A DNA stretch of 64,000 nucleotides, taken from positions 9,000-72,999 of the IMG/VR virus record IMGVR_UViG_3300010397_000045. One strand, 5' to 3'. Numbering within the stretch: the first letter of the stretch is position 1; each line of letters opens with the position of its first letter. This DNA is from a virus. Positions 1,577-61,813 of the stretch are shown piece by piece. The notes below the pieces were generated by a model. That model was not told the DNA's origin. It saw only the letters and a program-made list of their open reading frames with translations, and ran no database searches. The position numbers and the translations under genes were made by a program.

Positions 1577-1825
1577 TTAACTCCTAGTTGGTTTCCAGGT
1601 CATTACCTGGACATGCTCATCATTGAAAGTTGGATCTATCGCACTCTCTGAATCTTCCCCACAAGCCTCCATGAGCTCACGCAGCTCTTGACACTGTTTT
1701 AGATATGCAGTCATGCTTTCGTCTGTGCGCCGCTGCGCCTCCACTACCTCACGCCGTGTAACACGCAAGCCAGTGCGGTGTAGCCCCAAATGATCGCGCA
1801 ACACCCGTTTTACGTAGTCGCTCAT
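1577..1825 (-). CDS. Hypothetical protein
   Basis: Start moved to ATG 1825 (MSDYVKR), giving a 4-bp overlap with the stop of 1822..2325. Confidence 0.6.
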   Translation of the reverse strand: MSDYVKRVLRDHLGLHRTGLRVTRREVVEAQRRTDESMTAYLKQCQELRELMEACGEDSESAIDPTFNDEHVQVMTWKPTRS

Positions 1826-2325
1826 TTGAGCCCCATCGCCCGCAGTTGCTCTCTCACAGATTCGCTGATAGCATCGATCTCCTCGCGCTTCCAGCAATCC
1901 TTGTCGGCACACGGTGGGCCGTCGTGATCGTCGTCGCATTTGACGGCAGGTTTATCCCAGTCGGCTACATGAGCTTGGATGCTGCGCTCCACGTTCGGCC
2001 GCAAGATCTCCATCAACATGGAGCCGGCAGGCATCCCATTCATTTGCCTGGTAAAATCCGTGAGCATCTTCTCAGGATCGCGCGTCTCGGCGTAGTGGCT
2101 CAACACGACAAGGGCCAACAACTCGTTCTGCTGGAGCTGTAATACGTGGGGTGTGAGCGCCTGACAGACCCAGTACATGACAGATGTCATGTTCTTCTCG
2201 AACATGTCCTCACGCCCGCGTTTGCGTGCCTCGACCAGTATTCCAAGCAACACCATAACGCGTCCCATCAACGGGCCATCAGCCCTGTCAACCTTGCCCG
2301 CGAACATTTCCTCTAATGTACTCAT
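1822..2325 (-). CDS. Hypothetical protein (167 aa)
   Basis: ORF track; GAGAGG RBS upstream. Confidence 0.7.
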   Translation of the reverse strand: MSTLEEMFAGKVDRADGPLMGRVMVLLGILVEARKRGREDMFEKNMTSVMYWVCQALTPHVLQLQQNELLALVVLSHYAETRDPEKMLTDFTRQMNGMPAGSMLMEILRPNVERSIQAHVADWDKPAVKCDDDHDGPPCADKDCWKREEIDAISESVREQLRAMGLK

Positions 2326-2446
2326 GACTGCAGACCTCTCGTGTTGTATTTAAAGAAGGAGCCCGCCCAACGCAGGAAGCCAGCGCTAAATCCGTGGCAC
2401 AGAATTCCAACAGCTTATCTGGGTTTCCCCCGTTTTTAACAGGGAC

Positions 2447-2506
2447 AACCTTGCTCACTTTCACCTTGCAGCCTTGCGTCAATTGAACCTTGCGCACTTT
2501 CACCTT
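2447..2506 (-). repeat. 21-nt direct repeat AAGGTGAAAGTG(C/A)GCAAGGTT, two copies, within an AAG-periodic tract
   Basis: Plus strand aaccttgctcactttcacctt (2447-2467) and aaccttgcgcactttcacctt (2486-2506), 20/21 identical. Confidence 0.85.
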
Positions 2507-2538
2507 TGAGCCTTGAGCCTCTTAAGTTGGACTTGCCA

Positions 2539-2625
2539 TGGTTGCTTGTGGAGGATTCGAACCTCCGAGCCTTGTTAAGGCAACACCCTTTCGGGCGCCG
2601 TGTCTACCAACTTCACCAACAAGCG
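2539..2625 (-). tRNA. tRNA-Leu-like element lacking a canonical anticodon loop (GAAA tetraloop instead), with encoded CCA
   Basis: CGCUUGU UG GUGAAGUUGGUAGACAC G GCGCCC-GAAA-GGGUGU U GCCUU-AAC-AAGGC UC GGAGG-UUCGAAU-CCUCC ACAAGCA A CCA: perfect T arm, Leu-type D arm, long variable arm, A73, C1:A72 mismatch. Confidence 0.8.
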
Positions 2626-2702
2626 TTTGACGACCGCATAACGCCGCGGTCAGCGTTCTGTCTACTTGGATTCTACTCTGCGTGTCGGGCATCGTAAAAA
2701 CT

Positions 2703-3251
2703 CTACTTCAACGTAATCGGCTGGTCTAGCCGACCCTCCAACAAATCCGTCGTCGCATTCACGATCTCCAAGTGCCCATCTATGATCGATGGCTCGCGGC
2801 GATACAGGTCCAACCGGCGGTCGCGCTCCTCCGGGTCCCAGTGCCGTACGATCTTCACCATCAGCGGATCGGCCCCAGGCGCCAGCTGCACCTGGCCCTC
2901 GCGCCGGTTACCATCACCGATGTCGCCCCACAGCCTCAACGCTAGCGGGGCCAGGTCCTTGCGGCGGTGAATCCACCCGGCAATCGTGTGAGTCACCTGC
3001 TTGCCATCCAGCTCTATCGTGACGTTGGTCAACAAGTTGGTTCGCTGAATCGCCAGGCGCAGATGCAGGATGCGCTTCAGCGTATCCTCATGGCTTTGAG
3101 TCCACTCCCGGATTTTCTGCTTCATGTCTTCGTACTTCGGCGTGTCGGTTGACAGGTTGGCGCAGTTGGCGGCAACCTTGGTCCGCAGGTCCGCCGCCTT
3201 TTCGGCCAGGTCCCGCAACTCTCTCATCGCCTGTATGATCTTCACCTTCAT
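2703..3251 (-). CDS. DIP1984/DUF6847-like helical protein (182 aa)
   Basis: MKVKIIQAMRELRDL... start, LRLAIQRTNLLT core, TIAGWIHRR and IDGHLEIVNATTDL end match the family pattern as remembered; GAGGAG RBS. Confidence 0.65.
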   Translation of the reverse strand: MKVKIIQAMRELRDLAEKAADLRTKVAANCANLSTDTPKYEDMKQKIREWTQSHEDTLKRILHLRLAIQRTNLLTNVTIELDGKQVTHTIAGWIHRRKDLAPLALRLWGDIGDGNRREGQVQLAPGADPLMVKIVRHWDPEERDRRLDLYRREPSIIDGHLEIVNATTDLLEGRLDQPITLK

Positions 3252-3466
3252 TCTCCTCGGGTTCGAATTGCCGCGGGTTAACCGCGCTTATCAGTATCAC
3301 CGCAAACACCAGGATGAGCATCGCCAGTCCAATCACTGGCAGGATGTCAGCCAGTTGTTTCATACCGTGGCGGGGTGCGGCCCGGACGGGCTGGACGGAA
3401 GTGGGTCTGCGTAAACTCCCGGTCCGGCTGGCCGAGTACGCTCGGGGCCGCACCCTACCTTTGAAA

Positions 3467-53351: not shown

Positions 53352-53636
53352 TTAACAGATCGAGTTGACAAGCTTGGCCCGCACGGCCTCAGGTGGCATA
53401 CCCCGCGCGAGGTCGTTCTGCACTGTCGCAACAGCGTTCTCGAGTTGGGCAGCCCGCCTAGCCAGTGATATGTTAGCCCGTACCAGTTGTGCGCAGCGCT
53501 TGTCGACGCACGTGATGTCAGCTTGATATTGTGCCCCTAAGATTTCCACCATTTTACGCATCCGCCGGTAGTGGAGATACGTTATGAGGAAGCAGAACAG
53601 GAACGCTGTGATAAAACCAGCTGTGAAAGTATTCAT
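53352..53636 (-). CDS. Hypothetical membrane-anchored coiled-coil protein
   Basis: Start ATG 53636 (MNTFTAGF), 4-bp overlap with the thyX stop. Confidence 0.55.
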   Translation of the reverse strand: MNTFTAGFITAFLFCFLITYLHYRRMRKMVEILGAQYQADITCVDKRCAQLVRANISLARRAAQLENAVATVQNDLARGMPPEAVRAKLVNSIC

Positions 53637-54436
53637 ATGCGTCTGCTCCTGAATTCCAGCCACTCTTTGAACAGCTCCCGCTCGTGTTGGAACAACCCGT
53701 AGGTGCGGGGGAAATGCTCCTCTACCAACACCCCCACCGCACGCGCGCACTCGCGTGTCTCGTGCATCACCCCTTCCTCGTCTCGTAGCGTGAGGAATGC
53801 CAACCAGTTGCGAAGGTTGGCCGAGGCGCGCATCCTCGAGTAGTGGCCTACCGGCATCCCCATGCGGGCCAGCTCTTTGGGGATTCCCAACTTCAATCCC
53901 AGTTGGTAGAACTCCTCGTCGTGCTCGTACTTGTGCATGAGGGCATCGTGCCATGCCACAATCTGCTCGTCTGTCGGCGGCGTCTGGTTCTTGACCAACC
54001 CCTGCAACTGCTTGTTGTGCGTCGCGGCGGCCTCGTGCGAGCGGCGCCGGATGAGTTCAAAGTCCGGCAGGTAGTATTCCTCGGGCAGTGGCGCATAGCG
54101 GGCTGACATCTCGTTGTAGCTCTGCGTGCGGTGCCGATGCCACTCACGGAACACCGCAATTGGCGCCTGGACCTCGACGATCATGCCGGCGAACTCAAAA
54201 GGGCCCGCGTGCTTCGGGTGACTGTTGAACAGGGTTTTCAATAACAGCTCATCCAGGGTCCACCCACGGAACGAGCCCTGCGTCGATTGACGTGCGGCCT
54301 CGATGATCCCGCATTCGTAATCAGCTTTAGAAAAGGTGGCGGGATCGCTGACCCATTCCGAGATACCGGCCTTACCGGTACCCCACGACTCAATGAACTT
54401 GACGTAACCTTTCCCATCCAGAAGTTGGATATTCAT
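53633..54436 (-). CDS. thyX: FAD-dependent thymidylate synthase
   Basis: RHRTQSYNEMSARY signature, HAGPFE, KELAR and NLRNWLAFLTLR. Confidence 0.95.
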   Translation of the reverse strand: MNIQLLDGKGYVKFIESWGTGKAGISEWVSDPATFSKADYECGIIEAARQSTQGSFRGWTLDELLLKTLFNSHPKHAGPFEFAGMIVEVQAPIAVFREWHRHRTQSYNEMSARYAPLPEEYYLPDFELIRRRSHEAAATHNKQLQGLVKNQTPPTDEQIVAWHDALMHKYEHDEEFYQLGLKLGIPKELARMGMPVGHYSRMRASANLRNWLAFLTLRDEEGVMHETRECARAVGVLVEEHFPRTYGLFQHERELFKEWLEFRSRRI

Positions 54437-60353: not shown

Positions 60354-60878
60354 TTAAGCCCATTTTAGCCAGAATCGACCCTCTTTCGACCCCCCTATAA
60401 AGAGGTCCCGCGCCGCAGCCCCATGGGCGTACTCCTCCAGGAAGATTACTCGGCTACAGGATGTACAACACAACAGCTTGGCACAATGGACGCAGGGGCT
60501 GTGGGTCACATAACAGGTGTGAATCGCTTGCGGGTCCCGGCATTGGAGCAAGGCATTCTGCTCGGCGTGAATAGCTTCGCAAAGGTCCAACCCCTCTCCA
60601 GGTTTCGAAGCCGACCCTTTACAGGCGTTGAGGTATTCAAAGTGCGTCTTGATGCCACGCGGTACCGCACCCGAAGCGTGCACCGGTAGGTTGCCGTCGA
60701 AGACGGTCAGCCTCTCATTACAGTGAGGCCGCCCGGGAGCCACCCCGTTGTAACCGGTCGAAAGCACGTGCCCACGAACATCTACCAATACACAACCCAC
60801 AGCCCGTCTGAGACATGTAGATTGCTCAGCGATATCGCAACATACCTTGAGCCAGGTAGTCTCCTTTGCAGGTCTCAT
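60354..60878 (-). CDS. dCMP deaminase
   Basis: STCLRRAVG, STGYNG, HAEQNA and SPCVHCAK zinc motifs. Confidence 0.93.
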   Translation of the reverse strand: MRPAKETTWLKVCCDIAEQSTCLRRAVGCVLVDVRGHVLSTGYNGVAPGRPHCNERLTVFDGNLPVHASGAVPRGIKTHFEYLNACKGSASKPGEGLDLCEAIHAEQNALLQCRDPQAIHTCYVTHSPCVHCAKLLCCTSCSRVIFLEEYAHGAAARDLFIGGSKEGRFWLKWA

Positions 60879-61813
60879 GGCACGATCCCTGTTATAAGCG
60901 GTAGCAACTGAGAGTGCACCACGATTGGATCTTTCCAGGTCCGGTAACCCAACATAGAAGCAAATGCCTGCCAGCCGTCCGGAGCCGAGGCCACAGCCCC
61001 CTGGCGCAGCGCGTATTCAGTAGCGGCGATACCTTCCGACTTGATATTAGGTGGCCCTGGAATATCGACCTCGACGTAACACTGATTGTCGATATTCAGC
61101 ACCCAACCAGCCTGGTCTGCGTCACGCTCGTAGATATGAGACGACCCTATGACCAGTGTCAGTGGGCCGGCCTCTACCTGAAGTTCAGCCGCCACGGCCC
61201 GCTGGAGCATCGCAAAGTTGAAGATGTCGTAGGGTATTCCGAGCCACGCGTCCGACGATCGCATCGACACGGTGGCCTCGAGCCGTCCTTGGCGGAACAT
61301 GTATTGCATCGTGAGAGTGCAGGGAACATCCTTGGTTGTTGTATACCCAACATCCTCACTTCGATTTTCGAGTGAATCGTAATCACGCTGTACGATATTA
61401 TATTCAGGTCTCCACACCCCGATGATCGCCTGACGTGTATCGGCGTCGTTGCGGATACGCTCGACGACCCCACCAATCTGACTACGCCACCGCGGGCCAT
61501 AGGCGCCATAGAACGTCTGCCCATCGTCGGAGTACTTCACGATGTTGGAGTTGTAGTGCCGTATCATCGCAACGTCCGAGCGCCCACAGAAAACCCACAG
61601 AAACTCGGCGAACATGAACGGGTAGTTGAGACGCCGATCCGGCAACCAGGCGGCGCACTTTGTCGTGTCAGTCAGAACATACACCTGGTTACGCAATTCG
61701 CGGGTCGCCATGCCGCGCGGGCCCACGCACTCGCCATCTTCCGAGCGCAGTACGTTGTCGAGCACGGCGGCGTACAACCGGCTCGCTGTCGACGCTTTGA
61801 TTATCCTGTGCAT
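60875..61813 (-). CDS. Thymidylate-synthase-fold enzyme, probably a dCMP hydroxymethylase/methylase
   Basis: YSDDG...GAYGPR, DTRQA, catalytic DVPCT and MRSSDAWLGIPYDIF with Asp where dUMP-specific ThyA has Asn; SSHIY. Confidence 0.8.
   Translation of the reverse strand: MHRIIKASTASRLYAAVLDNVLRSEDGECVGPRGMATRELRNQVYVLTDTTKCAAWLPDRRLNYPFMFAEFLWVFCGRSDVAMIRHYNSNIVKYSDDGQTFYGAYGPRWRSQIGGVVERIRNDADTRQAIIGVWRPEYNIVQRDYDSLENRSEDVGYTTTKDVPCTLTMQYMFRQGRLEATVSMRSSDAWLGIPYDIFNFAMLQRAVAAELQVEAGPLTLVIGSSHIYERDADQAGWVLNIDNQCYVEVDIPGPPNIKSEGIAATEYALRQGAVASAPDGWQAFASMLGYRTWKDPIVVHSQLLPLITGIVP

What the first reader, a model, noticed from the sequence alone, without database searches (positions are those of the whole stretch)
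2539..2625. Anticodon-less tRNA mimic: Leu-type body, GAAA tetraloop in place of the anticodon loop, C1:A72 mismatch, encoded CCA
Seen: the T arm (GGAGG-UUCGAAU-CCUCC), D arm (GUGAAGUUGGUAGACAC), long variable arm (GCCUU-AAC-AAGGC), A73 and CCA are intact. The anticodon arm is GCGCCC-GAAA-GGGUGU, a stable GNRA-capped hairpin that cannot form a 7-nt loop. A clean tetraloop replacement looks selected rather than decayed. Established: bacterial LeuRS relies on A73 and the tertiary fold rather than the anticodon, and an unpaired 1:72 is a hallmark of initiator tRNA. Inference: it could be a chargeable non-decoding decoy (against anticodon nucleases or tRNA-sensing defences), an aminoacyl donor, or an RNase P/Z processing signal inside the larger RNA.
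Basis: partly seen in the sequence, partly recalled or inferred. Interest (0 to 1): 0.85.

Follow-up and report, generated by a model that had tools for sequence, protein, structure and literature searches.

The report
tRNA-shaped module of phage non-coding RNA
The anticodon-less tRNA look-alike is real, and it is the tRNA-shaped part of a larger, previously uncatalogued non-coding RNA gene that many soil and water phages carry, in which this part can be a normal tRNA, a tRNA without a working anticodon, or even a rearranged tRNA shape.

Summary
An 87-nt class II (Leu-type) cloverleaf lies on the minus strand at 2625..2539. It has a C-G-closed GAAA tetraloop where the anticodon loop should be, a C1:A72 mismatch, A73 and an encoded CCA. 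It is the only tRNA-like gene in this 73-kb soil phage.

It is not a stand-alone gene. It sits inside a non-coding unit of about 310 nt:
- a sigma-70-like promoter;
- a 5' hairpin;
- the tRNA-like module;
- a conserved 3' domain with purine-rich AAGG repeats and covarying hairpins;
- an intrinsic terminator.

A covariance model of the 3' domain hits the window once. It hits 136 of 164 loci found through the neighbouring DUF6847-like gene, and 0 of 98 unrelated phage loci.

Directly upstream of that domain, 118 distinct relatives carry:
- good tRNAs of many anticodons (32);
- tRNAs with A34 anticodons (9);
- 6-nt-loop tRNA-likes (5, including a UUCG-capped one);
- T-arm remnants or circularly permuted, YrlA-like tRNA shapes (29; 12 of the 118 are permuted);
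- nothing recognisable (43).

Best reading: a non-decoding structural or processing module, not a decoder. A decaying pseudo-tRNA is the main rival. A decoy or aminoacyl-donor role has no support. No RNA data or close relatives were available.

The parts
2670..2698 (-). Sigma-70-like promoter: -35 TTTACG (2698-2693), 17-nt spacer, -10 TAGAAT (2675-2670). It overlaps the family-wide 5' box GACACGCAGAGTAGAAT (2686-2670).
   Evidence: Consensus scan: 2 promoter-like sites found against 0.6 expected. The box aligns with ..GACRCGCAGAGATAAAAAC.. in 47 relatives. It occurs once in the 73-kb genome even with 3 mismatches allowed. That it acts as a promoter is inferred.
2632..2651 (-). 5' hairpin P1, GACCGC-GGCGUUAU-GCGGUC, 6 nt upstream of the tRNA-like module.
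   Evidence: Read. Relatives have a hairpin at the same place. Its stem sequence varies and its loop is conserved (..RCGAUA..) (alignment read by eye; not tested statistically).
2539..2625 (-). The finding: an 87-nt class II tRNA-shaped module. The 16-nt arm at 2598-2583 is capped by GAAA (2592-2589). It has C1:A72, A73 and an encoded CCA (2541-2539).
2344..2536 (-). Conserved 3' RNA domain. It holds two purine-rich units of about 39 nt with AAGG repeats (30-nt cores 2515-2486 and 2476-2447), hairpin CCCUG-UUAAAAA-CGGGG (2444-2428), a long covarying hairpin and a terminator stem.
   Evidence: Direct repeats. Alignment A2 of 52 sequences. Pair counts. Covariance model R1 hits 2344-2536(-) at 103.9 bits, E = 2.4e-27, and this is the only hit in the genome.
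2352..2376 (-). Intrinsic-terminator-like end of the unit: stem-loop CCUGCGUUGGGCGGG followed by CUCCUUCUUU.
   Evidence: Terminator scan. Homologous GGCUUCC..GGGNGG stems followed by U-rich tracts are seen in relatives.
2703..3251 (-). Upstream neighbour gene: 182 aa, a DUF6847 / DIP1984 / Gp157-like helical protein of unknown function. It is the gene with which the RNA travels.
   Evidence: GC3 0.81. 80 homologues. AlphaFold model with pLDDT 91.8. The only fold match with E <= 0.001 is PDB 3kdq, of unknown function. Atlas leads.

Best explanation
The element is the tRNA-shaped module of a phage non-coding RNA gene of about 310 nt, roughly 2663..2352 on the minus strand. It is not a decoder.

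Layout of the unit: its own promoter, a 5' hairpin, the module, a conserved 3' domain (AAGG-repeat units plus hairpins) and an intrinsic terminator.

In this RNA family the slot directly 5' of the 3' domain holds a tRNA fold whose decoding parts are free to vary. What is kept in this copy is the L-shaped body: a 7-position acceptor stem (6 pairs plus C1:A72), the D/T-loop elbow and the CCA. The arm that would carry the anticodon is simply closed with a stable GNRA tetraloop.

Most likely mechanism for this normal-topology copy: the body is handled by the host's tRNA machinery. RNase P would cut at 2626|2625, and the 3' end would be trimmed to the encoded CCA. That would cut the primary transcript into a short 5' leader, a very stable 87-nt tRNA-like RNA and a 3' domain with a defined 5' end. 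Alternatively or in addition, the body may act as a nuclease-resistant docking domain, as has been proposed for the tRNA-like module of bacterial Y RNAs.

Shown: the architecture, the family, the interchangeability of the module, and non-decoding variants including circular permutations.

Inferred: transcription, cleavage sites and any binding partner.
For: 1. One unit.
- A promoter-like site at 2698-2670 and a terminator-like site at 2376-2362 bracket the region.
- The 377-nt gap between genes is non-coding.

2. The flanks are a conserved RNA.
- The 5' box and hairpin align in 47 relatives.
- The 3' domain aligns in 52 sequences.
- For the 20 pairs I tested: 86.1% of cells are paired; the covariation score is 0.297 against 0.134 in shuffles (0 of 500 shuffles reach it) and at most 0.161 when partners are slid; 7 of 11 pairs of the long hairpin change on both sides.

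3. Specificity of model R1.
- One hit in the window, none in the other 9 kb of the genome, and hits in 72 of 80 metagenome loci. The 8 misses have 0-368 nt of downstream sequence.
- 64 of 84 further loci hit at E <= 3.5e-8.
- 0 of 98 unrelated phage loci, 752 kb, hit.

4. Content of the slot in 118 distinct loci.
- 32 ARAGORN tRNAs with 7-nt loops, of many different anticodons
- 9 with A34 anticodons
- 5 with 6-nt loops: this one CGAAAG, L134 G-UUCG-C, L202 CUCAAA, L206 AUUAUA, L296 CUGUAA
- 29 with only a T-arm motif
- 43 with none
- The module's 3' end abuts the start of R1; most gaps are -9 to +30 nt.

5. Circular permutation.
- 12 of 118 loci have the order T arm, acceptor stem closed by a loop (GUAA, GAAA, GUUA and others), D arm, with a closing 'anticodon' helix made from the two flanks.
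- All 9 of these that were among the 16 loci scanned against Rfam hit YrlA: 26.7-46.5 bits, E from 3e-7 to 0.17, below the 69-bit cut-off. None of the 7 other loci scanned hit it.
- A capped acceptor with an opened anticodon loop is not a decay product. It shows that the tRNA shape itself is used in this family.

6. Tetraloops. Hairpins capped by GNRA or UNCG tetraloops are about twice as frequent in the slots as in shuffles: 21 against 11.3 +/- 3.5. The highest of 200 shuffles reached 22, so this is modest support.

7. This copy's body is intact in all four arms. It has U8, A14, G18-G19 and a GUUCGAAUC T loop.

8. Precedents in print.
- Passages read in PMC4201824: the tRNA-like domain of M. 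smegmatis YrlA is cut by RNase P and receives CCA, and D. radiodurans Yrn1 has a 5-bp 'anticodon' stem with a 6-nt loop.
- Passages read in bioRxiv 10.1101/2024.12.08.627333: phage GOLLD RNAs sometimes carry tRNAs in a linker region.
Against: - 43 of 118 family members have no recognisable tRNA shape in the slot. The 3' domain therefore does not strictly need one.
- In all 19 normal-order relatives I scanned, the slot tRNA scores 50.3-71.8 bits with the Rfam tRNA model. This holds even for those with 6-nt loops. The slot may simply be a place where phages express a real tRNA, and this copy (32.3 bits) may be a broken one.
- L165 has a canonical tRNA-Leu(UAA) at the same place, with a closely similar D arm and variable arm.
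- L296's loop CUGUAA is what a single-base deletion in a Thr(UGU) loop would give. Ordinary inactivation does happen here.
- No relative closer than 58% identity in the neighbour protein could be fetched. Whether the tetraloop is retained is therefore untested.
- No RNA run holding this sequence was listed. Transcription, processing and ends are all inferred.
- The fold energy of the 87-mer is not unusual.
Confidence: 0.6

Rival explanations
1. A recently inactivated phage tRNA-Leu gene (pseudo-tRNA). On this reading the conserved RNA locus is just an expression site where these phages keep one tRNA. This copy lost its anticodon loop by mutation and is on its way to the remnants seen in other relatives. 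The GAAA cap is an accident.
For: - Relatives carry good tRNAs at the same place: 19 of 19 scanned score 50.3-71.8 bits.
- L165 has a homologous-looking tRNA-Leu(UAA).
- There is a continuum from tRNAs through 6-nt loops to T-arm-only remnants and nothing: 32 / 9 / 5 / 29 / 43 of 118.
- L296 looks like a one-base deletion.
- This copy scores only 32.3 bits and has a C1:A72 mismatch.
Against: - Apart from C1:A72, no stem pair is broken and all elbow nucleotides are canonical.
- Getting from a canonical loop such as L165's CUUAAAA to C-GAAA-G needs a deletion plus substitutions, all inside 7 of 87 positions (inference).
- Permuted, acceptor-capped tRNA shapes in the same family show that a non-decoding tRNA fold is used there.
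- Capped hairpins are moderately enriched in the slots.
Confidence: 0.25
2. A chargeable, non-decoding tRNA. LeuRS, which does not read the anticodon, would leucylate it. The Leu-RNA would then serve as a decoy for tRNA-targeting defences or as an aminoacyl donor.
For: - A73, an encoded CCA, an intact elbow and a Leu-type D loop are present.
- That bacterial LeuRS ignores the anticodon is established knowledge, recalled and not tested here.
- PMC4201824 (passages read) raises possible aminoacylation of M. smegmatis YrlA after CCA addition.
Against: - No FemAB-type gene was found.
- The only L/F-transferase match is 15.5 bits, below the 22.7 cut-off, inside a Mu-F-like head protein.
- Relatives' modules are of many identities, and some have a capped acceptor that cannot be charged. 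Charging is therefore not a family property.
- Without an anticodon loop it cannot mimic the substrate of an anticodon nuclease (inference).
Confidence: 0.07
3. Assembly or sequencing slip: a base missing from a normal 7-nt loop.
For: Metagenome assembly at modest depth (8.6 in X1). Only one run covers the loop.
Against: - The IMG/VR record and Logan's separate assembly of X1 agree, with no indel over 1800-3400.
- Adding one base does not give a Leu anticodon. For example, C-U-GAA-A-G would read Phe in a Leu body (read directly from the sequence).
- Four other family members also have 6-nt loops.
Confidence: 0.03
4. Phage attachment site (attP) carrying a copy of a host tRNA gene.
For: Different relatives carry different tRNA types at one conserved place. 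Short repeats lie next to the element.
Against: - No tyrosine-integrase domain in the genome. Serine recombinases were not searched.
- The genome has its own PolA, primase and helicase and looks lytic.
- A whole tRNA, including its 5' half, is present.
- The adjacent repeats are part of a covarying, strand-specific RNA domain.
Confidence: 0.02

Closest known systems
Bacterial and phage Y RNA-like RNAs (YrlA, Rfam RF02553; D. radiodurans Yrn1)
   Same: - A non-coding RNA that contains a tRNA-mimicking domain with T and D arms and no decoding function.
- Both topologies described for Y RNAs occur in this family. In one, the stem-loop between the arms takes the acceptor position (YrlA type; permuted relatives hit RF02553 at 26.7-46.5 bits). 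In the other it takes the anticodon position (Yrn1 type, with a 5-bp stem and a 6-nt loop, as in this window).
- M. smegmatis YrlA is cut by RNase P and receives CCA (PMC4201824, passages read).
   Different: - The window itself gives no YrlA match at E <= 10, and the relatives stay below the 69-bit cut-off.
- No Ro60/TROVE gene in this phage, nor in the 4 related phage records that could be searched.
- The partner domain is a 198-position AAGG-repeat domain, not a Ro-binding helix.
- In many members the module is a full, high-scoring tRNA.
GOLLD and ROOL large phage RNAs
   Same: Phage-encoded non-coding RNAs of unknown function that lie beside tRNAs. GOLLD sometimes carries tRNAs covalently in a linker region (bioRxiv 10.1101/2024.12.08.627333 and PMC5737381, passages read).
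   Different: - No Rfam match to either in the window or in 35 related loci.
- This RNA is much smaller (about 310 nt against about 600-800 nt).
- Its 3' domain is largely single-stranded and purine-rich.
tRNA-like processing handles of other long RNAs (MALAT1 mascRNA; murine gammaherpesvirus 68 tRNA-miRNA transcripts; E. coli 3'ETS-leuZ)
   Same: A tRNA or tRNA-like fold inside a longer transcript is cut by RNase P or RNase Z. This sets the ends of the neighbouring functional RNA.
   Different: Those are eukaryotic, eukaryotic-viral or chromosomal cases. No processing data exist for this phage RNA.
Canonical phage tRNA-Leu genes
   Same: Class II body, Leu-type D loop, A73 and CCA. The Rfam tRNA score is above the cut-off (32.3 against 29).
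   Different: A 6-nt loop that closes to a GAAA tetraloop, no U33, no anticodon, and C1:A72.

Membership tests
tRNA (Rfam RF00005) | Covariance-model score at or above the gathering cut-off of 29 bits | tested here: met
   32.3 bits, E = 7e-5, in the 601-base scan. It was not listed in the whole-window run with default filters.
tRNA (functional decoder) | 7-nt anticodon loop with U33 and a 3-base anticodon | tested here: not met
   The loop is CGAAAG (6 nt), or GAAA closed by C-G. ARAGORN reports a 2-base anticodon.
tRNA-Leu | Class II variable arm, Leu-type D loop, A73; leucylation by LeuRS | tested here: inconclusive
   The sequence features are present and the D arm and variable arm resemble L165's tRNA-Leu(UAA). 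Charging cannot be tested with these tools.
YrlA / Y RNA-like (Rfam RF02553) | Covariance-model score at or above 69 bits | tested here: not met
   No match at E <= 10 in window 2300-2900. Nine permuted relatives score 26.7-46.5 bits.
YrlA / Y RNA-like | Encoded next to a Ro60 (TROVE-domain) gene | tested here: not met
   The Pfam TROVE family finds nothing in the phage genome or in 4 related phage records. A fifth record was not held. A host-encoded Ro60 cannot be excluded.
YrlA / Y RNA-like | tRNA-like domain with T and D arms and tertiary-pair nucleotides | tested here: met
   for the window. for permuted relatives.
tmRNA | tRNA-like domain formed by the two RNA ends, plus a tag reading frame | tested here: not met
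   ARAGORN's tmRNA search finds none in the genome. The AAGG repeats have a 7-8 nt period, which does not keep a reading frame (read from the sequences).
GOLLD / ROOL | Match to the Rfam models | tested here: not met
   No match in the window or in 35 related loci at E <= 1 or 0.1.
New family: 'R1' phage ncRNA next to DUF6847-like genes | Match to model R1 on the strand of the DUF6847-like gene, next to it | tested here: met
   Window 2344-2536(-), 103.9 bits. The window sequence was one of the 52 sequences the model was built from, so its own match is expected. Independent support comes from hits in loci not used to build the model (for example L165, L169, L159, L161, L250, L239, L245) and from 0 hits in 98 control loci.

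The most novel reading that the evidence does not exclude
The whole unit is a new, widespread class of phage non-coding RNA. It would be a Y-RNA-like, two-module molecule that works without Ro60.

On this reading, an interchangeable tRNA-fold module docks onto a host factor that reads the tRNA elbow, such as RNase P, the ribosome or a tRNA enzyme. That module may be a real tRNA, an anticodon-less tRNA or a circularly permuted tRNA. The purine-rich AAGG-repeat domain, with its two sets of AAG units at 7-8 nt spacing, would bind a multimeric RNA-binding protein. The adjacent DUF6847/Gp157-like protein is one candidate. Together they would form a ribonucleoprotein that acts in the phage's early or replication programme.

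The window's tetraloop copy would then be a deliberately 'disarmed' tRNA rather than a broken one.
Probability: 0.25. Interest if true: 0.85.

Novelty: new variant of a known kind. Interest (0 to 1): 0.7.

Why it matters
tRNA mimicry in non-coding RNAs is known (Y RNAs, tmRNA, viral tRNA-like structures), but what the mimic is for remains open. The authors of the YrlA paper say they do not know what its tRNA-like module interacts with (PMC4201824, passages read).

This phage RNA family offers a natural experiment. At one slot next to one conserved RNA domain it shows the same fold in four states: a working tRNA, a tRNA with a disabled anticodon, a circularly permuted tRNA shape, and none. That makes the question testable by swapping modules.

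It also adds a candidate RNA family that Rfam 15 does not hold. I found it in 136 of the 164 related loci fetched, from soils, sediments and waters.

Finally, it shows that 'tRNA-???' calls in phage genomes should not be dismissed as junk or taken as exotic decoders without looking at what lies beside them.

Tried and rejected
- GenBank phages hold no similar DNA: megablast with 1.6 kb and blastn with 361 nt both found nothing.
- The nearest cultured PolA is only 37-38% identical (Stenotrophomonas AXL3, Pseudoxanthomonas PW916), so no cultured relative is available.
- IMG/VR scans:
  - The exact T-arm-to-CCA string gave 0 matches.
  - The D-loop...T-loop pattern gave 0 matches.
  - Single-protein scans with both neighbour genes and with PolA found no relatives.
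  - Portal relatives are 41-53% identical, mostly 43-45-kb proviruses. In the 5 of those records searched, the only tRNAs found were ordinary ones, in 2 records.
None proved to be a close relative. L116 shares 15 nt of the D arm and has a GAAAUU loop, but its acceptor stem is degenerate and it lies in an AT-rich tRNA cluster.
- RNAalifold on the full, gappy alignment A2 predicted no pairs. A local RNAalifold run on sub-alignments gave the structure that I then tested.
- The downstream genes of the window have no homologues downstream of the RNA in relatives (blastp, E <= 1e-3). The RNA therefore travels with the upstream DUF6847-like gene, not with the downstream one.
- Function of the DUF6847-like protein:
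  - PHROGs gave only a weak 'tail fiber' family, matched by 16 of 57 members.
  - The PDB sequence profile gave nothing.
  - The only fold match with E <= 0.001 was 3kdq, of unknown function.
- Sequencing runs: no RNA holder was listed. Runs X2-X4 do not cover the tetraloop.
The short contigs that encode the 88%- and 63%-identical neighbour proteins (P0002, P0003) could therefore not be fetched.
- Supplementary tables of PMC4201824, which list phage YrlA RNAs, were not seen and may bear on whether any member of this family was already listed.
- Literature searches:
  - 'tRNA-like / bacteriophage / noncoding RNA / anticodon': 24 papers, none on this RNA.
  - 'GOLLD / ROOL / tRNA / phage': 8 papers.
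  - 'DUF6847': 0 papers.
  - 'YrlA / tRNA-like / phage': 2 papers.
Full report
**1. What is in the window**

On the minus strand at 2625..2539 lies an 87-nt sequence that folds as a class II tRNA. Its parts are:
- an acceptor stem of six pairs under an unpaired C1/A72;
- a 3-bp D stem with the Leu-type loop AAGUUGGUAGA;
- a 5-bp variable stem, GCCUU-AAC-AAGGC;
- a canonical T arm, GGAGG-UUCGAAU-CCUCC;
- A73 and an encoded CCA.

The arm in the anticodon position has 16 nt instead of 17: GCGCC-CGAAAG-GGUGU. Its loop can close to C-GAAA-G, a GNRA tetraloop at 2592-2589.

ARAGORN reports 'tRNA-???' with a two-base anticodon, and this is its only call in the 72,999-bp genome. The Rfam tRNA model gives 32.3 bits against a cut-off of 29. 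The whole-window run with fast filters lists nothing. The cloverleaf is the minimum-energy fold, but its energy is not unusual: z = -1.76, and 8 of 200 shuffles fold as well.

Logan's separate assembly of run X1 spans 1800-3400 in one contig of depth 8.6, with two substitutions and no indel. X1 may be the source sample, and runs X2-X4 do not cover the loop.

**2. What genome this is**

The window is bases 9000-72999 of an IMG/VR virus record that CheckV rates complete. Near-identical sequence occurs in soil and root metagenomes of many studies.

The minus-strand block holds a PolA, a helicase, an exonuclease, a primase, thymidylate-synthase-like genes, a MazG-like gene and a dTMP kinase-like gene. 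The plus-strand block holds the portal, a Mu-F-like head protein, the protease and the major head protein.

I found no tyrosine integrase, no Ro60/TROVE protein and no FemAB-type transferase. The one Leu/Phe-transferase match is sub-threshold and lies in the Mu-F-like head protein. The nearest cultured PolA is 37-38% identical.

**3. The element is part of a larger non-coding gene**

It sits in a 377-nt gap between two minus-strand genes. In order, the gap holds:
- a sigma-70-like promoter, TTTACG-17-TAGAAT, at 2698-2670;
- a hairpin at 2651-2632;
- the tRNA-like module;
- two 30-nt direct repeats, 39 nt apart and rich in AAGG;
- further hairpins;
- a terminator-like stem with a U-rich tail at 2376-2352.

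**4. Relatives**

Single-protein and DNA searches of IMG/VR and GenBank phages found nothing close. The upstream neighbour gene (182 aa, weakly DUF6847) has 80 homologues in the large protein collection.

With an alignment of 57 of them I fetched:
- 80 metagenome loci (the best 80 of 310 relatives);
- 16 genome-bin loci;
- 68 IMG/VR loci.

All are at most 58% identical to the window's protein.

In these loci the non-coding region is conserved:
- a 5' box (..GACRCGCAGAGATAAAAAC..) and a hairpin with a conserved loop;
- a 3' domain of about 200 nt with the consensus ..CUCAAGGCUCAAGGCUCAAG..AAGGUAGCAAGGUU..GCAAGG..AAGGUAGCAAGGAUGU, then a hairpin, then ..GAAUGUCCUG.., then a long hairpin with a U-rich loop, then GGCUUCCUG..GGGAGG.

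For the 20 pairs I proposed, the counts on alignment A2 are:
- 86.1% of cells are paired;
- the covariation score is 0.297, against 0.134 +/- 0.009 in shuffles (0 of 500 reach it) and at most 0.161 with slid partners;
- 7 of the 11 pairs of the long hairpin change on both sides.

**5. A model of the 3' domain, with a control**

Model R1 has 198 positions. Its hits are:
- the window once, at 2344-2536(-), 103.9 bits, and nothing in the remaining 9.4 kb of the genome;
- 72 of 80 metagenome loci, 71 of them with E <= 2.1e-11. The 8 without a hit have only 0-368 nt downstream of the gene;
- 64 of the 84 other loci at E <= 3.5e-8. The misses are mostly remote homologues of 23-32% identity or cut contigs;
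- none of 98 unrelated phage loci, 752,055 bases.

All hits lie on the strand of the DUF6847-like gene. In some 16 loci the RNA lies just upstream of that gene instead of downstream.

Rfam 15 has no family for it. The only matches in the window region and in 35 related loci were tRNA, sub-threshold YrlA and chance hits.

**6. What sits in the slot**

I took the 260 nt upstream of the R1 hit in the 134 loci with a usable hit, plus the window. I dropped duplicates and loci with less than 150 nt upstream. That left 118 sequences, which sort as follows:
- ARAGORN finds a tRNA-shaped gene abutting the domain in 46 (most gaps are -9 to +30 nt).
- 32 of these have a 7-nt loop. Their anticodons are very varied: Thr UGU/CGU, Gln CUG/UUG, Met CAU, Asn GUU, Ile UAU/GAU, Ser UGA/GCU/CGA, Leu UAA, Glu UUC, UCA.
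- 9 have a 7-nt loop but an A34 anticodon, which I recall is unusual in bacteria and phages.
- 5 have a 6-nt loop: the window (CGAAAG), L134 (G-UUCG-C on a perfect 5-bp stem), L202 (CUCAAA), L206 (AUUAUA) and L296 (CUGUAA).
- 29 have only a T-arm motif.
- 43 have nothing recognisable.

All 19 normal-order relatives that I scanned with Rfam score 50.3-71.8 bits as tRNA, including three with 6-nt loops. In 28 of the 46, ARAGORN's drawing shows at least one unpaired acceptor position, so C1:A72 is not distinctive.

L150 and L152 share one body. They differ in the third anticodon base (ACA against ACU) and by paired changes in the anticodon and T stems.

**7. Circularly permuted tRNA shapes**

Many 'T-arm only' members read as follows: 3' strand of an anticodon-like stem, variable bases, T arm, a 5-9-bp hairpin in the acceptor position closed by a loop (GUAA, GAAA, GUUA and others), two bases, D arm, then the 5' strand of the anticodon-like stem, followed directly by the 3' domain.

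A strict script finds 12 of 118 such modules. Of 16 loci scanned against Rfam, the 9 that the script calls permuted all match YrlA, the bacterial Y RNA-like family: 26.7-46.5 bits, E from 3e-7 to 0.17, cut-off 69. The other 7 do not.

Such a module has no free acceptor end and no anticodon loop. It is neither a tRNA nor a decayed tRNA gene. This is my strongest argument that this RNA family uses the tRNA fold as a module.

The YrlA paper (PMC4201824, passages read) describes both orientations in known Y RNAs. It notes a 5-bp 'anticodon' stem with a 6-nt loop in D. radiodurans Yrn1. [quoted passage not shown] It also warns that dimeric tRNAs can mimic YrlA in searches. That does not apply here, because the flanking halves of a second tRNA are missing and the two flanks pair with each other.

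**8. Reading of the window's copy**

It is the normal-order version of such a module, with the arm that is not needed closed by a tetraloop. For this topology I commit to handling by the tRNA machinery as the most likely mechanism:
- RNase P cuts at 2626|2625.
- The 3' end is trimmed to the encoded CCA.
- The 3' domain is thereby released with a defined 5' end.

A protective or docking role without cleavage is the alternative within the same explanation. My confidence is 0.6. Everything beyond architecture and comparative pattern is inferred.

**9. What speaks against this reading**

- 43 of 118 members lack a recognisable tRNA shape.
- Many members have first-rate tRNAs.
- L165 has a normal tRNA-Leu(UAA) with nearly the same D arm and a similar variable arm.
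- L296 looks like a single-base deletion.
- No relative close enough to test retention of the tetraloop could be fetched.
- No RNA data exist.

A decaying pseudo-tRNA therefore remains a serious rival (0.25). Enrichment of tetraloop-capped hairpins in the slots is only moderate: 21 against 11.3 +/- 3.5, with 22 the highest of 200 shuffles.

A chargeable decoy or donor (0.07), an assembly slip (0.03) and an att site (0.02) have little or no support.

**10. The partner gene**

The DUF6847-like protein gives a confident helical model (pLDDT 91.8). Its only fold match in the PDB with E <= 0.001 is 3kdq, of unknown function. In the ESM atlas it resembles clusters named DIP1984 family and Siphovirus Gp157 family, which are leads only. 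Its function, and whether it binds the RNA, are open.

**11. Novelty**

- tRNA mimicry inside non-coding RNAs is known (Y RNAs), and so is covalent linkage of tRNAs to phage RNAs (GOLLD).
- New here is an uncatalogued RNA domain that travels with a DUF6847-like gene and not with Ro60.
- Also new is a slot that shows real tRNAs, disarmed tRNAs and permuted tRNA shapes side by side.
- My four literature searches found no description of it. The supplementary lists of phage YrlA RNAs in PMC4201824 could not be seen.

Noticed in passing
IMG/VR loci L015-L132, for example L018, L032, L046, L051, L071, L087: About 26 of the 118 stretches found with the pattern share three nearly invariant features: acceptor stem AGUCAGG/CCUGACU, D arm UGGUAGACGC and T arm RCAGG-UUCGARU-CCUGY. 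Their middle part, 31-48 nt, is hypervariable and has no recognisable anticodon arm. ARAGORN mostly makes no call. This looks like another family of phage tRNA-shaped RNAs with a replaced centre. None of those checked (L015-L100) carries the R1 domain.
   Followed up: partly
L214, L215, L216, L217, L219, L253, L259, L268-L271, L273, L276, L278, L280, L284: In these relatives the R1 RNA ends a few bases upstream of the DUF6847-like gene instead of following it. Seven of them (L214, L216, L217, L268, L270, L273, L278) still have a tRNA directly upstream of the RNA. The tRNA is therefore linked to the RNA, not to the gene. In this layout the terminator-like stem GGCUUCC..GGGAGG could mask the gene's ribosome-binding site.
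   Followed up: no
window 2569-2574 and 2561-2574 (minus strand), compared with 2502-2515 and 2463-2476: The 3' strand of the variable arm plus the start of the T stem (CAAGGCUCGGAGGU) is 86% identical to the 14-nt unit of the downstream AAGG array. The tetraloop region CGAAAGGG also contains AAGG. This may be chance, or the array motif may reach into the module.
   Followed up: no
window 2447-2515 and related loci: The AAGG array consists of AAG units at 7-8 nt spacing. They fall into two sets about 39 nt apart. From memory, this layout recalls RNAs bound by ring-shaped proteins such as HutP or TRAP. No binding protein is known here.
   Followed up: no
L150 and L152; also L205 and L251: Near-identical tRNA bodies with CCA carry the anticodons ACA and ACU. 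The difference comes with compensatory changes in the stems. In all, 9 of the 41 tRNAs with 7-nt loops in the slot have A34.
   Followed up: partly
window 53633-54436 and 60875-61813 (minus strand): There are two thymidylate-synthase-like genes, plus a dTMP-kinase-like and a MazG-like gene. This gene set suggests modified or unusual thymidine metabolism in this phage.
   Followed up: no
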